Assembly (NCBI RefSeq): GCF_030013595.1
Contig: NZ_CP122769.1
DNA length: 64,000 bases
Strand: one strand, 5' to 3'
Origin: Escherichia coli
Lineage (GTDB): Bacteria > Pseudomonadota > Gammaproteobacteria > Enterobacterales > Enterobacteriaceae
Position numbers: made by a program. Positions 3,001 through 15,000 of this stretch are shown here, piece by piece (within the stretch, counting starts at the first letter, position 1; each line of letters begins with the position of its first letter).

Positions 3001-6000
3001 AGTCAAACAACTTGGCGGACAAATTTCGCCTCTTCCGGATGATACATTTAGGGAGTCCGGAACAAAGGTCAAAACAGCCCGCCTTGAAATTGATCTTCGC
3101 CGCTAACTGACAAGCAACCGGAAAGAAATCTTAATACGAGTAGCCGGTTAAAGTTACCTGACCGGCTTAACTGACTAAATCAATAAAGAGTGAACAGAAA
3201 TGACGCATACTGCCGTTTCTCAGGCTAATAGTGCTTTGCAGCTACCCACGCTGGAGCATGTCTACGCACTTCTGAAAGCAAATTGTAAACCTGACCGCTT
3301 TGACGGGCGTGACGGACCCGTGTGGGGCCAGGAATACTCGTGGAATCTGGCAAAAGATCGCTTACAGGATCTGGAGAAATACGGTAAGGCATATGTCTCC
3401 CGTCATGAAGACCGTATGGGGGAAGGATTTAGTTTTGGTCCTGACCTGTTAATTATTCGCTAACGCTCTTAAGGCCTGATGATATGGTAAGCACAACTGG
3501 AAAAAATATGTTTTCAAAGCCTATGACCACTTTCACACCAGAACGTATTGAACAAATTTTGGAATTTTCCGAGGGTAGTAACCCAAGCGAAGCAATGAGT
3601 CTTAGAGCTGACGAAGTTGCTGTACTGGCACGTATTGGAAAGGCAGTTATGTCGATTGCGCCTGTTTATCAGTGCGAGTTTTGCCACCATGACGCAACCG
3701 GGCAACTTCAGTGGCACTGGGAAGATGTGAACAAAGCTTTTTATGATAAATACGATCCAGACAGACGCGGAAGACGTCGAATCCTCTATACCGCCCCGCC
3801 GATGCCTTTAGTTTCGGCTGACCTGCTTAACATGGCTTCATCTGCTATTGAAGACTTGCTCACTAACAAAGACAGAAGTGGTGCGGGAATGTGGAATGAC
3901 ATTCCAGAACAGCTACGACGCGCAGCAGAACTGGTAATGGATAATAGCCGGGCCGCTGAAATAGAAGCGATGCTGATGCGTCTTTATGTAGAATGTGACA
4001 CCGGTGAGCGCAGAGGCAACGGCAGTCAATCTGGCGTAGCAATGCCTTCGTGGCAAACCGTTGAAGAGGCACGTGTGTTGCTGGGGGTGAAATGATGCAG
4101 TTCTCGCCAGGGCAGTTTGTAATTCACAACAAGAAGCGCCTTGCGGAACGAAGGTAGACGTACTGACTGAGGTTCACTCCCCTCTCGACTGGTGGCGTAA
4201 TACCGCCAGGTTTTGATTCATATATGCCGTCCGTTAACGCATTTATATCTGTCATACCTAATTTATCCTGATTCTTTTTTACACAAAGTAAAAGCATCAC
4301 TTAATGCGATATGTGGATGCCGATAGTTTCAGGCTAATGTTATAAGTTTTGCAATCGTTGCCAGTTTGGATACCACAGCAATGTCAGATGTAATTCCAAA
4401 AAGAAAGATTTACGTCCTGAACGCACAATAAGGTTTGTCGAAAGGCAAATTATAGATTTGTAATTTCGAGCACCATATGGAGAAGTTTTTTATACTTTTA
4501 CGAACATAGTGACCTTTAGGAAAAGCTTAAAATAACACCAAACCTAAAGGGGAATAAGAATGAAACATCTCGCTTTTATTACTGCTGTAGCCGGACTCGG
4601 TATGTCTGTTCAGGCCCCAGCTCAGATATATGAATCGGCCTTTAAGGACACGAACGGTATTGAGATCCACGCCCCGTCTTCTCGTCTTATGCTTAATCCG
4701 GCATCACCGGTAACTTTGACACTTATTTCAGGTCTTGATCGTTTCGTTAATGTCAAAGTCACGAAAGACACTGGAACTGTCATTCTTAATACTACGACTA
4801 CACGGACGGGTGTATCAGACCGACTAACAGCTGCTGACGGTAGTGAGTTCTACGGCAAAAAAGTAACTTTGCCTGCTTTGGGTGAAGGCAAATTTGTCGT
4901 TCAGATAAACGTGTTAGATCTCAATCAGAAGCCTGTAGCGACCTATAACTATAACTGGCTAATTGATGTCACCCCTCCAGCGGCAAATGCTCTTACCGCT
5001 AATACTGGTTCTGGCTCTACCGCTGGTGACGTGTGGAAGCTTGGATTAGAGGCAACGGGGCAGTATGACTTCACCTCTTCGGGCGTAAGTGATGCAAATG
5101 GTATTGATAAGGGCCTAATATATATTTACAGGCAGGACGGTAGCCTCTACAGCACTACACAGATGCAGTATGACGTATCCGGCCAAAAGATGTACCACAC
5201 TTACTCTAAGAATTCAGTTAAGGGAACCGGAATACCAGACAGCAACCTGGATGAAGACTTTACTGCAAAAGTTGTTATCTTCGATAACGCAGGTAATAGC
5301 CGAACGCTGCCAACTCAAAAATTTCGCTACGACAACACGCTGGGTGAGATGACACTGTGGGCCGTTCATGATCCAAATACGTCTTCCAGCGTCGTACCCG
5401 GGGTTTCTAATTATCCGGCTTACAAAGCCGGTATGGTCGTTAACGAAAACCCTATTCGATTAGTCTACCGGATCCCAAAATCTAACTACCGTGCTTATTC
5501 AGAAGGTGGGCTTCAGTTCATCAATCAATATTCCGCCCCCAAAGAGATAGCTGTAGACAGCACTTATGCTTATGTTGAAATGACTCTTCCCTATGGCTCA
5601 ATTAATGGGGATATGGCTCGTATGGCGAACTTTGGCCAGTGGGGAGGGTATTATCCGTCATACAGCCTCGTTCTAAACCCATCTGCAAACCAAACGCCTG
5701 CATTTGCGGGTACCTGGGTAGATTTCCTCGATGATAAGGGGAACTGGGTTAAGTGGAAGGATTTTGAGAGTGTGGCTTCATCACGACTGCCAATTAAAAT
5801 TTCCCGACTTCGTTTTAACGTTGAAGCCCGGCCCTTTGCACAGGAGATCGGCGGTAAGGCGACCTGCACCATTCCGGCAGGAAAAACCTCGTGTGAAGCG
5901 CCTGAGACGTTTGATATGGCCTTGGGTACCCAGGGCTACAATAGAATCCTTTACTTCGTTCGCAGCATCAGCAATCCCATTTTGCGGTCTGAGCAATGGA

Positions 6001-12000: not shown

Positions 12001-15000
12001 TCTTTCATGTTGAACTCATACGTGTAGTTCCCAGACGCCATATTTCTACCTGTTTGTTTGCCGGTTACGCTTATTTCTGCGTTGTTACGGTTTTTATCTG
12101 ACAACCAAACTCGATTTACATAAACATGGTCGAAATATGAACCATCTCCAGGTTGATTCACGTAAACCTGGAGAATGTTGGTGGTTTCATTGTAATCAAA
12201 TCCAGTGACGGAGGGACCCAGTGTATGCCAGGCTATATTCTCCCATATAGGGGCAAAGAAGGTTGCTTCGGTGGTTGACCTTACTTCATAGCCACTATGA
12301 AGATAACCGGTAGTGCCATTTATAATATCCTGGGGCAAAGAGACGGTACAGGTTGTTGAGCCAGCTGGAATACTGCATGTTGCTCCGCCAGTGATTTTTT
12401 GATCATATGGCCTGGCCTGTACATTGAATCGGATATTAGTAAGTTTTATAGGCATATCAGATGCCTTGAACAGGTTCCAGTTTACGCTGTTGAACCATGT
12501 TCCATCAGCCTTTTGTCGTTCTATGGGTGAACTTCCCCAAGCCGGACTCTTTACAGAGGCAGGATCCCAGTTGAGCCAGCTGGCATACTGACCAAGATCT
12601 CCTCCAGACCATTGATATGTATTCACAGGTCTATAGTAGTTTCCATCTAAGGCACCCTGTGGCAGCTTAACTTCCACGTAGACATAGGTGGCATCTTCGG
12701 AAAGGACCTGTACTCCGCCATAGTTATTGGTAATGCTCATGCCACCATTTCGATATGGCTTCCAGTTAGTTCTTGGGATACGTATAACCAACTTGTAGGG
12801 GTTTTCCAGCACTGTAAGGCCTCGTTTAAACGGGACGTATCCCGAAGAAATGCCGGGTACAACACTGGTGCTTACACGTGAGTCATGAACTGCAAATGGC
12901 GTAAATTCTCCCATTTGATCGTCATATAAAAACCGCTGGGGAGGAATGTTAAGCGTATTTCCTGCCAGGTCCGTAACGATGAAATTGAAGGTGAATTCTT
13001 CATCAAGATCACTTGAGGGCATGCCAGCCTGGGTGTTCATATCTTTAATCCACGGATAGAACGCACGTTTATTGGCTGTGTCATAACTCAGGTTATTGTC
13101 GGAGACCACAGAACCATTACTTCGTTTAATGACAAGACGGATCTTGTCAATTCCACTAGCATCCTCAATACCGTCTGCAAATATAGAAAACTGGCCACTA
13201 CCGCCTCGGCCCAACTCCCAAAGTGGCCCAGAAAGTACCATGTCGTAACCTGCGTTTTGACTCGGATAAATACTCTTATAGCGTGGAGGAGTTGTATCAA
13301 CGATGAAATGATAAGTAGATGTGCTCACTACAGTCTGGCGAATATCCAGAGTTTCATTGACTACAGTAAAGGTCCCTTCTCCGAGCGCCGGTAGAACCAT
13401 ATCCTTTCCATAGTATTCTGTTCCATCGGCAGCAACGATACGATCTGCAACGCTCGTTTTGGTCGAGACGGAGGAATACATAACCTTTTTATCGCTGTCT
13501 CGTGTGACCGTCACTCGCTCGTACCGATCAAGACCCGATATCAAGTTCAGAGTCAAAACACCAGCGGGATTAAGATATGTTTGTGTTGCAGGTTTGATAT
13601 TCCGAACAGCCTTATTGGTATCTGTAAATGAGTAGCTAAATACCTGAGCATGTGCCGAAGATACAGTAGCAAGGGCAGTTGCAACCATGCAGCCAATTAG
13701 AGTTTTACGCATATGATGCTCCGGGAATAGGTTATAGCCTTATTCTACGGATTCAGCCTACAAGGTCCGGTCGGATAAAGTGATAATTTGCCTGTTAAAA
13801 GAGACATCAAGTGAGAAAGCAACCAACGTACAGAATGCAAAATGGCGGCAGTGCATCTGGATGACGCAAAAGTAACTTTTTGTATCCACTTTTTTGGATT
13901 TTAGCCTTCAAAATGAGTATTCAACCAATCATAAAAGTAACTTTTGATAGACGCTGCTCCTTTATGTTTGCCAATTGTGCTGATATGTTTGTAAATTCAA
14001 GGAAGCGAGATTTTAAAAGCATCTGTTGAGTCAAATTTATGTAAAATAACAGGGAAACCATCACTTCTAGGTTGAGGAAACCCAATGTTATACATGCTCT
14101 TATGCTGTTTTCTGATGCTCAACAGTACATTCGTTATGTTCAGAGCAATGTCTGCAATAAGTAAAGGATCCGCTAAAGAAAACCGGTCTGAAATATCGCT
14201 GATAGTCCTAGCAACACTTGGAATCGCATCACCATTCATTGTCGCAATGATTACTATTAATGAAAGTATGACATCTAAAACAGTAACAGATTTTTCTTTG
14301 GGTGCTCAGTGGTACGGAATGGTTTCAGCGGTAGCGCTAATGGGGTTATATGCTCGACGCGTTTGGAAAGAGAAGAAGTCCTTATTTACTGGCGCTTTCC
14401 TGGCCTCTTCCTTAATGGCCTTTATTTTTACTGACAGCCTTGTTTTCGTATCCCAGAAGGACACCGGCGTTCTGGCTACTTTCGTACTCGATAAAAACGC
14501 TGGAGATATTGATTGTAGTCGCCCGGCTATGATTGTCCATTACAGTAAAGGTGTTCCAACGGACTGGCGTTGCCCAACCAGTATCATGTTGATGGCGTAT
14601 TCTTCATATCCTTTTTTACCCTGGCCTGAGTATAGCCATGGTACCAGCCAGTCTCTTACGGTTGTTATTGATACATTTATGGAAAACGCTGTTAATCTCA
14701 GCCAAAAATAAAAAATAAACCTCTCTAGTGAGAGGTTTTATAAACCTGAGCCACCAATCTAATTAACTCTATATTTTTGTTTTAGCTTTTTTAAAGATAG
14801 ACTTACCGAATAAAACAGCAATTATAGAGCAAAGGCCTGGCGTTAGGACAAAAGCTAATAATGCACTGCCAAAACTTGTCATTTCAGGCACCAGGAACCA
14901 GCTGATAGGCCACGTCAGGGCTGGTAAATTTAGCGGATCATAAAGCGCATGTAGAGCGCTTAACACACAGTAAAGTGCTAAAAAGCAAACTAGATAAACA

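What the first reader, a model, noticed from the sequence alone, without database searches (positions are those of the whole stretch)
4560..13712. Inverted paralogous genes for ~810-aa secreted proteins bracketing the replicon
The 806-aa (+) and 818-aa (-) proteins share signal peptides, overall composition and a nearly identical C-terminal ~80 residues (...TLTVRKDAAFG...SEFMIQIDELK versus ...SEFMINIEELK), and lie in inverted orientation on either side of the rep gene and its iterons. Such inverted homology could drive inversion of the whole replicon segment and suggests gene duplication of a surface factor.
Basis: seen in the sequence. Interest (0 to 1): 0.4.

Follow-up and report, generated by a model that had tools for sequence, protein, structure and literature searches.

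The report
Two RSP2-like Ig genes flanking repHI2
Two old, diverged copies of a secreted multi-Ig-domain gene sit tail-to-tail around one replication origin of an IncHI2 resistance plasmid; they are relatives of the conjugation helper RSP2 of plasmid R27, are too different in DNA to flip the segment between them, and no flipped version was found in over 1,200 sequenced plasmids.

Summary
Genes 4560-6980(+) (806 aa, "A") and 11256-13712(-) (818 aa, "B") are full-length paralogs with 41% aa identity. They lie convergently around repHI2 and its iterons. The C-terminal 80 residues are 56% identical, not "nearly identical", and the signal peptides are only 20% identical.

- Codon-aligned DNA identity is 49%, and the longest shared exact word is 11 nt.
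- Synonymous sites are saturated even at the C-terminus.
- A synthetic inverted-isomer query matched 0 of 1237 plasmid records. In contrast, 941 records are collinear with the window.

The window is IncHI2 backbone. Both proteins have the DUF4165 + Big_3_2 + Big_3_3 architecture of R27 RSP2, an experimentally characterised secreted protein that binds pili and flagella and aids conjugation. A is 32% identical to RSP2 (E 5e-107). A third paralog lies just outside the window. The published statement that IncHI2 plasmids lack rsp2 therefore holds only at the DNA level.

The A-rep-B arrangement is ancestral, because intact IncHI1 plasmids share it. In R27 itself both A and B are broken. Both genes are under strong purifying selection.

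Verdict: uncharacterised members of a known family; conserved synteny, not an inversion switch.

The parts
4560..6980 (+). Gene A: 806-aa RSP2-family protein. Layout: signal peptide about residues 1-22, DUF4165 21-138, Big_3_2 139-259, unassigned beta-sandwich region 260-548, Big_3_3 549-705, linker 701-715, conserved C-terminal module 716-806.
   Evidence: ORF and translation. Pfam. AF2 model with pLDDT 84. 32% identity to R27 RSP2, E 5e-107. At least 99% identical in 1106 of 1112 plasmid records.
11256..13712 (-). Gene B: 818-aa RSP2-family paralog with the same domain order. It is the ortholog of the IS30-disrupted Ig-like gene of R27.
   Evidence: ORF and translation. Pfam. 41% identity to A. 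82% identity to the R27 Ig::IS30 product. At least 99% identical in 1121 of 1122 records.
9003..10148 (-). repHI2 replication initiator. It is 381 aa here but 362 aa in reference records, because of a T6/T5 homopolymer difference at about 9078-9083.
   Evidence: Annotation in NZ_CP022165.1. 38% identity to the R27 Rep3-type initiator. Indel located.
7148..8960 (.). Iteron-pair array downstream of repHI2. The core is about 10 copies of an 81-bp unit (7742-8570), each holding an inverted pair TGACAACGGTAGTGA...TCACTACCGTTGTCA. ORF 8006-8695(-) is a by-product of the repeats.
   Evidence: The remembered IncHI2 replicon-typing primers map here. No CDS is annotated here in the reference.
10343..10895 (.). 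Two clusters of 21-bp direct iterons upstream of repHI2 (10343-10470 and 10785-10895). This is the putative origin and autoregulatory region.
   Evidence: families D8, D11, D14.
11106..11151 (.). Iteron-like inverted pair (GACCATGGTAGTGA...TCACTACCATGGTC) about 105 bp beyond the stop codon of B. It marks the outer edge of the replicon region.
   Evidence: (D6, D9, D12, D14).

Best explanation
A and B are two ancient paralogs of the RSP2 (DUF4165/Big) family. These are roughly 800-aa proteins built from a string of beta-sandwich (Ig-like) domains behind a Sec signal peptide, and they are encoded in the conserved backbone of IncHI plasmids.

By homology with R27 RSP2, they most likely work as follows (all inferred):
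- They are taken to the periplasm by Sec.
- They reach the cell surface or the medium in a way that depends on the plasmid's F-type T4SS and pilus machinery. TrhC is encoded at 32511-35192 in this window.
- They bind extracellular filaments (conjugative pilus, flagella), which helps mating at low temperature.

Their tail-to-tail position around repHI2 is inherited synteny shared with IncHI1 plasmids, not a recombination device. The two genes are far too diverged in DNA to recombine, and the segment between them is not found inverted within IncHI2.

Shown here: paralogy, family membership by architecture and full-length homology, conservation and purifying selection, absence of inversion isomers. 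Inferred: export route, binding targets, role in conjugation.
For: Family membership:
- The same three Pfam domains, in the same order and above the curated cut-offs, occur in A, B, the third IncHI2 paralog C and R27 RSP2.
- Full-length alignments: A-RSP2 32%, E 5e-107; C-RSP2 39%, E 1e-174; A-B 41%.
- A profile of the family finds 421 clusters at E <= 1e-30, nearly all matching end to end.

Function of the characterised relatives:
- RSP2 is found in the periplasm and the secretome. Its export needs TrhC, TrhH and TrhA and partly needs RSP. It binds flagella and the pilus. Deleting it lowers liquid conjugation about 100-fold at 25 C (PMC8730810).
- An IncA/C protein with the same three domains is also needed for conjugation at 25 C.

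Structure: the AF2 model is all-beta and multi-domain with pLDDT 84. Foldseek hits are multi-Ig/MG-domain proteins and the adhesin SiiE.

Signal peptides are conserved in kind across 28 homologues.

Maintained function:
- pN is 0.11-0.13 against saturated pS of about 0.8 between IncHI2 and IncHI1 orthologs.
- Both genes are at least 99% identical across about 1100 IncHI2 records.

Synteny: an intact IncHI1-type locus has RSP2(-), A(+), rep, B(-), DUF4942. R27 has the same order, with A fragmented and B split by IS30.

No inversion.

The T4SS is in the same window: TraC/TrhC, TrbI-like, TraU, TraN.
Against: - No experiment exists on A or B themselves.
- R27 conjugates well although both its A and B orthologs are disrupted. 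They are therefore not essential for transfer and may be redundant with RSP2/C or serve another purpose.
- Other IncHI-like plasmids lack A or B.
- A and B form a subfamily distinct from C/RSP2: only 15-24% identity in the central 139-548 region. Their binding targets may differ.
- The signal peptide was judged by eye, not with a trained predictor.
- The published T4SS-dependent export of RSP2 has not been reconciled with a Sec signal.
Confidence: 0.62

Rival explanations
1. One reading: the two inverted homologous genes act as inverted repeats at which homologous recombination flips the whole replicon segment, producing two plasmid isomers.
For: The genes are homologous and in inverted orientation around repHI2. 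Relative to A and B, the rep gene has opposite orientation in IncHI1 and IncHI2, so an inversion or replacement of the inner segment did happen once in evolution.
Against: - nt identity is 49% and the longest identical run is 11 nt.
- pS is 0.70-0.88 in every region, so there has been no gene conversion.
- 0 of 1237 records are in the inverted configuration, against 941 collinear.
- The IncHI1 and IncHI2 A and B orthologs are collinear along their whole length and are not chimeric. The historical orientation change therefore had its breakpoints outside the genes.
- The inner DNA is unrelated by blastn and the Rep proteins are only 38% identical.
- No recombinase is annotated between or beside the genes.
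Confidence: 0.02
2. A and B are surface or secreted adhesins that serve something other than conjugation, for example biofilm formation, host or abiotic surface attachment, phage or predator shielding, or surface exclusion. They merely travel with the plasmid backbone.
For: - The fold is generic multi-Ig, with adhesin and S-layer-like matches.
- R27 transfers without intact A or B.
- A and B lie in the replication and maintenance region, not inside Tra1 or Tra2.
- Their central region differs strongly from RSP2.
Against: The only two tested proteins with this three-domain signature (R27 RSP2 and the IncA/C ALG87338.1 product) both affect conjugation. The family is mostly found on large conjugative plasmids.
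Confidence: 0.25
3. The convergent placement itself is functional. Transcription from A and B runs toward the origin from both sides and insulates or modulates repHI2 replication or copy control. Alternatively, the conserved flanks serve as homology arms for exchanging replicon cassettes between IncHI plasmids.
For: - The A-rep-B order is kept in IncHI1 and IncHI2 although the replicon between them is very different and inverted: Rep 38% identical against flanks at 80-82%.
- Iteron-like sites reach to within about 100-170 bp of both stop codons.
Against: - Other relatives keep rep with only one of the two genes, or have the genes with no rep nearby.
- The flanks are only 72% identical in DNA between IncHI1 and IncHI2, which is poor for homologous exchange.
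- Promoter and terminator scans were no better than shuffled sequence.
Confidence: 0.08
4. The genes are decaying relics with no current function.
For: R27 has lost both. Occasional IS26, IS2 or IS3 insertions are seen in IncHI2 records.
Against: - Intact full-length ORFs are at least 99% identical in about 1100 records.
- pN of 0.11-0.13 against saturated pS since the IncHI1/IncHI2 split.
- 51 invariant columns across 28 family members.
Confidence: 0.03

Closest known systems
RSP2 (R0055 / R27_p055) of the IncHI1 plasmid R27 (Huttener et al. 2022, mSphere, PMC8730810)
   Same: - About 800 aa with an N-terminal signal-like sequence.
- DUF4165 + Big_3_2 + Big_3_3 in the same order, plus a conserved C-terminal module of about 100 aa.
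- Alignable end to end: A 32%, B 34%, C 39% identity.
- Encoded in the same backbone neighbourhood of an IncHI plasmid.
   Different: A and B form a separate subfamily: only 15-24% identity to RSP2 in residues 139-548. They flank the replicon rather than lying beside it. Nothing about them has been tested experimentally. The positional counterpart of RSP2 in IncHI2 is the third paralog C, outside the window. The paper states that IncHI2 plasmids lack rsp2, which is true only for DNA-level similarity.
IncA/C (IncC) Big protein ALG87338.1 of pKAZ3 (1843 aa)
   Same: It carries the same DUF4165, Big_3_2 and Big_3_3 domains and is secreted and needed for conjugation at 25 C. The profile search shows a class of about 1820-1870 aa whose first 800 or so residues match the whole A/B/RSP2 profile.
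   Different: It is twice as long, with a C-terminal extension of about 1000 aa. It is encoded inside the tra region. It was not compared directly here.
RSP (R0009) of IncHI plasmids
   Same: A large secreted Ig-like protein of the same plasmids, the interaction partner of RSP2 and needed for its export.
   Different: It is not a homolog in any useful sense. BLASTP of A against RSP gives E 0.099, and RSP has only a sub-threshold Big_3_3 match.
Invertible DNA segments bounded by inverted repeats (RecA-dependent flip-flop between inverted copies, or Hin/Gin/Fim-type site-specific inversion)
   Same: Two homologous sequences in inverted orientation bracket a segment.
   Different: There is no usable DNA identity, no recombinase and no second orientation in 1237 records.

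Membership tests
RSP2 / DUF4165-Big family of plasmid Ig-like proteins | N-terminal DUF4165 domain (PF13752) above the Pfam gathering score | tested here: met
   A scores 53.3 bits and B 62.3 bits against a cut-off of 25. RSP2 scores 69.5 and C 49.9.
RSP2 / DUF4165-Big family of plasmid Ig-like proteins | Big_3_2 (PF12245) followed by Big_3_3 (PF13750), in the same order and positions as in RSP2 | tested here: met
   A has Big_3_2 at 139-259 (97 bits) and Big_3_3 at 549-705 (219 bits). B has them at 142-264 (132 bits) and 561-717 (223 bits). RSP2 has them at 169-254 and 539-693.
RSP2 / DUF4165-Big family of plasmid Ig-like proteins | End-to-end sequence homology to R27 RSP2 | tested here: met
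   A against RSP2: 32% identity over 816 columns, E 5e-107. B against RSP2: 34% in the family alignment.
RSP2 / DUF4165-Big family of plasmid Ig-like proteins | Encoded on an IncHI (MOBH, MPF_F) conjugative plasmid in the backbone region shared with R27 R0055 | tested here: met
   IncHI2A, MOBH and MPF_F typing of matching records. Synteny with R27 and an intact IncHI1 locus.
RSP2 / DUF4165-Big family of plasmid Ig-like proteins | N-terminal export signal, with the protein found in periplasm and secretome | tested here: inconclusive
   Sec-type n/h/c regions with an AxA-like site are seen by inspection in A, B, C, RSP2 and 24 homologues. The AF2 model has low confidence over residues 1-20. No signal-peptide predictor was available and localisation was not measured.
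RSP2 / DUF4165-Big family of plasmid Ig-like proteins | TrhC/TrhH/TrhA-dependent export, binding to flagella and conjugative pilus, and a positive effect on conjugation at 25 C | not testable with these tools
   Known only for RSP2 itself. It needs genetics and microscopy on an IncHI2 plasmid.
Recombination-driven invertible segment | Inverted repeats with enough DNA identity for RecA-dependent exchange (tens of bp of perfect identity) | tested here: not met
   49% codon-aligned nt identity, best local match 74% over 77 bp, longest identical run 11 nt. No other long inverted repeat in 4000-14500.
Recombination-driven invertible segment | Both orientations observed among molecules or assemblies | tested here: not met
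   The synthetic inverted-isomer query gave 0 of 1237 records with at least 80% in one place. 941 records are collinear. Minority isomers within a population cannot be seen in assemblies.
Recombination-driven invertible segment | Dedicated invertase or recombinase next to the segment (for site-specific systems) | tested here: not met
   Only repHI2 is annotated between the genes. The neighbours are hypothetical proteins and a methyltransferase. Pfam finds no recombinase domain in the tested neighbouring ORFs.
RSP (R0009) family | Sequence homology to R27 RSP | tested here: not met
   The best BLASTP E-value is 0.099 over 155 residues.
Iteron-type Rep3-like replicon (RepHI2) | Initiator homologous to Rep3-type IncHI initiators, plus arrays of direct repeats beside the gene | tested here: met
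   38% identity (E 4e-63) to the R27 Rep3_N initiator. 21-bp iterons upstream and an 81-bp iteron-pair array downstream. Annotated as RepHI2.

The most novel reading that the evidence does not exclude
IncHI2 plasmids, the main carriers of mcr-1 and mcr-9, do not lack RSP2 as published. They carry a three-member RSP2-type family (A, B and C). A and B form a subfamily that the model plasmid R27 has lost through IS30 insertion and deletion. If A and B contribute to pilus or flagellum binding with their own specificities, the R27 model understates the Ig-like conjugation apparatus of IncHI plasmids, and A and B would be additional extracellular targets for the nanobody and vaccine approach already tried against RSP. 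A related reading is that the two conserved genes frame a slot in which the replicon cassette has been exchanged and inverted between IncHI1 (RepHI1B-type) and IncHI2 (RepHI2).
Probability: 0.35. Interest if true: 0.45.

Novelty: new member of a known kind. Interest (0 to 1): 0.27.

Why it matters
IncHI2 plasmids spread colistin and multidrug resistance. Their surface-exposed Ig-like proteins have been proposed as antibody and nanobody targets (PMC11268884). IncHI2 backbones keep three intact, strongly conserved RSP2-type genes, whereas the laboratory model R27 keeps only one. This corrects a statement in the literature and points to untested candidates for conjugation or host-interaction functions. 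It does not reveal a new kind of system, and the proposed replicon inversion does not occur.

Tried and rejected
- Homologous-recombination inversion. Rejected on DNA identity, the inverted-repeat survey and the synthetic inverted-isomer search.\n- Recent gene conversion as the cause of the C-terminal similarity. Rejected: pS is 0.70-0.72 there, and the C-terminal module is the best-conserved part of the whole family, with mean pairwise identity 0.50.\n- Allelic diversification of A and B among IncHI2 plasmids, suspected because one search showed 579 records at 95-99% identity. Rejected: A and B alone are at least 99% identical in nearly all records. By elimination the divergence lies in the part of the query that searches did not cover, about 6981-8899, which holds the iteron array. 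That stretch was not searched on its own.\n- Homology of A or its C-terminal module to RSP. None found.\n- Solved-structure relatives by sequence. None found. Foldseek against the PDB gave only generic multi-beta-sandwich matches with TM-scores of 0.2 or less over the whole chain.\n- NCBIfam. No family found for A, B, C or RepHI2.\n- Promoter and terminator scans around the genes. No enrichment over shuffled sequence.\n- Lipoprotein reading of B (LIGC at residues 5-8). Rejected: the Cys lies too close to the N-terminus and the motif is not conserved in orthologs.\n- Literature search for IncHI2 transposon mutagenesis covering these genes. Nothing relevant found.\n- ORF 8006-8695(-), 229 aa. 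Treated as spurious, because it runs through the 81-bp repeat array and is not annotated in reference records.

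
Full report
**1. What is there**

The window matches the IncHI2 plasmid backbone.
- The stretch 4000-14500 hits 1238 PLSDB records, mainly Escherichia, Salmonella and Enterobacter, and mostly conjugative.
- 941 of these records are collinear over at least 80% of the query.
- The records are annotated "Ig-like domain-containing protein" (twice) plus "IncHI-type plasmid replication initiator protein RepHI2". A reference record is typed IncHI2A, MOBH, MPF_F.

BLASTP aligns them end to end at 637 bits, E = 0.0, 41% identity and 62% positives.

Between their facing 3' ends lie:
- repHI2 (9003..10148, -);
- an array of about 10 units of 81 bp, each holding an inverted pair of iteron-like sites (7742-8570, with outliers from 7148 to 8960);
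- two clusters of 21-bp direct iterons upstream of rep (10343-10470 and 10785-10895).

The IncHI2 replicon-typing primers, recalled from memory, map to this array and its edge. The 229-aa ORF at 8006-8695(-) runs through the repeats and is not annotated in reference records, so I treat it as spurious.

**2.

- The last 80 residues are 56% identical in protein and 61% in DNA, not "nearly identical". Only the final 11 residues are close.
- The signal peptides are similar in kind but only 20% identical.
- The higher C-terminal similarity is a property of the whole family. In an alignment of 28 homologues, residues 706-806 are the best-conserved module (mean pairwise identity 0.50, against 0.32 for the middle).
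- Synonymous differences between A and B are near saturation even at the C-terminus (pS 0.70-0.72). This rules out recent gene conversion.
- repHI2 is not "the" replicon. A RepHIA gene, 84% identical to the R27 copy, lies at 23558-24433.

**3. The inversion hypothesis**

- Codon-aligned nucleotide identity between A and B is 49%. The only blastn match is 74% over 77 bp. The longest identical run is 11 nt.
- Established knowledge of RecA-dependent recombination requires tens of base pairs of perfect identity.
- Apart from the 43-nt gene 3' ends (74% complementary), the only inverted repeats in 4000-14500 are iteron sites.
- I built the sequence an inverted isomer would have: the left flank 2500-4559 joined to the reverse complement of 8900-11255. 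Its pieces would be merged into one place only if they lie on the same strand within about 2.7 kb.
- I searched this query against all plasmids. 1237 records matched its parts, but none had both parts in the inverted-isomer configuration. In contrast, 941 records are collinear with the window.
- No recombinase is annotated in or beside the segment.
The remaining caveat is that assemblies cannot show rare isomers within a population.

**4. What the proteins are**

- Pfam finds DUF4165, Big_3_2 and Big_3_3 in that order in both proteins, all well above the gathering scores.
- This is the architecture reported for RSP2 (R0055) of the IncHI1 plasmid R27: 794 aa, with DUF4165 at 23-142, a Big domain at 143-254 and Big_3 at 537-693 (PMC8730810). 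I confirmed it on the R27 sequence.
- A aligns with RSP2 over its whole length at 32% identity, E 5e-107.
- A third IncHI2 paralog, C (796 aa, WP_000694550.1), lies just left of the window start. It is 39% identical to RSP2, E 1e-174.
- RSP itself is unrelated to A (E 0.099).
- No solved structure is related by sequence.
- An AlphaFold2 model of A, built from a 28-sequence alignment, has mean pLDDT 84. It is entirely beta and forms a chain of beta-sandwich domains, judged from the strand pattern and Pfam boundaries rather than from a domain parse. The N-terminal 20 residues have low confidence. A linker sits at 701-715 and a C-terminal domain at 716-806.
- Foldseek finds only generic multi-Ig/macroglobulin-domain proteins, S-layer proteins and the adhesin SiiE.
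- All 28 family members start with a short basic segment, a hydrophobic stretch and an AxA-type site, followed directly by a conserved mature N-terminus Q-[IVL]-[YF]-x-x-S-[FY]-T-D-T. I read this as a Sec signal peptide. This is an inspection, not a predictor result.

**5. Family and evolution**

- A profile search of 1.84 billion representative proteins finds 421 clusters at E <= 1e-30. Most match the profile end to end.
- They fall into two length classes: about 800 aa, and about 1820-1870 aa in which the first 800 or so residues are the RSP2-like unit. The long class fits the IncA/C protein described in the paper (1843 aa with the same three domains).
- Within the family, A and B are each other's closest paralogs, and C groups with RSP2.
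- The arrangement is ancestral. An intact IncHI1-type Salmonella plasmid has RSP2-ortholog(-), A-ortholog(+, 80% identical), a Rep3-type rep, B-ortholog(-, 818 aa, 81%), then DUF4942 (B identity).
- R27 has the same order, but its B ortholog is split by IS30 (82% identity over the first 705 residues). Its A ortholog survives only as two fragments (74% and 86% identity). This explains why work on R27 saw only RSP2.
- Between IncHI2 and IncHI1, A and B show pN of 0.11-0.13 while synonymous sites are saturated (pS about 0.8). This indicates strong purifying selection.
- Within IncHI2, both genes are at least 99% identical in 1106 of 1112 and 1121 of 1122 records. A few records carry IS26, IS2 or IS3 insertions.
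- The bracket is not universal in more distant relatives. One IncHI-like plasmid has A and rep but no B, another has B and rep but no A. A Klebsiella plasmid has two tandem copies beside parAB. A metagenomic contig has a lone copy.

**6. How it most likely works**

For RSP2 the paper shows the following:
- presence in the periplasm and in the cell-free secretome;
- export that needs TrhC, TrhH and TrhA, and partly needs RSP;
- reduced motility;
- a roughly 100-fold drop in liquid conjugation at 25 C when rsp2 is deleted.

The window encodes the corresponding F-type T4SS components: TraC/TrhC at 32511-35192, a TrbI-like protein, TraU and TraN. RSP is reported in all IncHI2 plasmids.

I therefore infer that A and B are Sec-exported, released in a pilus- or T4SS-dependent way, and act as filament-binding accessory factors of conjugation. 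Their central regions have diverged from RSP2, so their targets may differ.

The weak points are that nothing has been tested on A or B, and that R27 conjugates without them. My confidence is about 0.6. The main rival, at about 0.25, is an adhesin role unrelated to transfer.

**7. Comparison with the literature**

[quoted passage not shown] At the protein level this does not hold, since IncHI2 carries three full-length family members. The BLAST search reported there was presumably run at the nucleotide level, where RSP2 and C are too diverged to match. That is my inference. Full-text search finds DUF4165 only in that paper and one unrelated preprint.

**8. A side finding**

Relative to A(+) and B(-), rep is on the minus strand in IncHI2 but on the plus strand in IncHI1.
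- The Rep proteins are only 38% identical.
- The iteron sequences differ, and they lie on opposite sides of the segment.
- The inner DNA shows no blastn similarity, while A and B are 72% identical in DNA and collinear.
- A and B are not chimeric between the lineages.

The replicon between the two conserved genes was therefore replaced or inverted once, with breakpoints outside the genes. This is not evidence for paralog-driven inversion.

**9. Verdict**

The feature is real. It consists of ordinary backbone genes of a very common plasmid family, and they are uncharacterised members of a known protein family. The proposed mechanism, inversion of the replicon, is refuted. The modest value lies in correcting the claim that IncHI2 lacks rsp2, and in naming A, B and C as candidates for experiments.

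Noticed in passing
Outside the window, just left of position 1 (NZ_CP022165.1 204873-207263, L003:14874-17264, - strand): A third RSP2-family paralog (796 aa, WP_000694550.1) is present in IncHI2 backbones. It is 39% identical to R27 RSP2 and lies on the same side of A as RSP2 does in IncHI1. IncHI2 therefore has three family members.
   Followed up: partly
window 6981-11255 compared with L004:12422-16276 and L002:12605-15628: The replicon between A and B has opposite orientation in IncHI2 and IncHI1. Its Rep proteins are only 38% identical, its iterons differ and its DNA shows no similarity, while the flanking genes are 80-82% identical in protein. This suggests a replicon cassette replaced or inverted between conserved flanks.
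   Followed up: partly
window 9078-9083: A homopolymer length difference (T6 here, T5 in NZ_CP022165.1) near the 3' end of repHI2 changes the last residues and extends the product from 362 to 381 aa. It could be a real variant or a sequencing error.
   Followed up: partly
window 7742-8570 (outliers 7148-8960): An array of about 10 units of 81 bp, each with an inverted pair of iteron-like sites, lies downstream of repHI2. It creates a spurious 229-aa ORF (8006-8695, -). By elimination, most of the 95-99% identity variation among IncHI2 records probably lies in this stretch, but it was not searched on its own.
   Followed up: partly
window 23558-24433 (+): A second replication initiator, RepHIA type, is 84% identical to the N-terminal 118 residues of the R27 initiator at 39480-40355. 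The plasmid therefore has two replicons within 15 kb.
   Followed up: partly
window 27144-35192 and 57875-62242: F-type T4SS (Tra2-like) genes: TraK-like, TrbI-like, TraC/TrhC (32511-35192), TraU and TraN. An IS66-family transposase at 55652-57223 sits between them, and a ParA-like ATPase lies at 39530-40783.
   Followed up: partly
window 20001-24000 and 40001-48000: G+C drops to 0.36-0.38 in these stretches, against 0.42-0.51 elsewhere. The cause was not examined.
   Followed up: no
L005:10001-14968 (Klebsiella michiganensis plasmid CP106839.1): Two tandem same-strand RSP2-family genes (802 and 806 aa) lie next to parAB, with no rep between them. This is an independent duplication in another plasmid lineage.
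   Followed up: no
window 13865-13944: A 15-nt motif (CATAAAAGTAACTTT-like) occurs twice, 65 bp apart, in the region upstream of B, and once inside A (4856-4870). It may be chance or a regulatory site.
   Followed up: no
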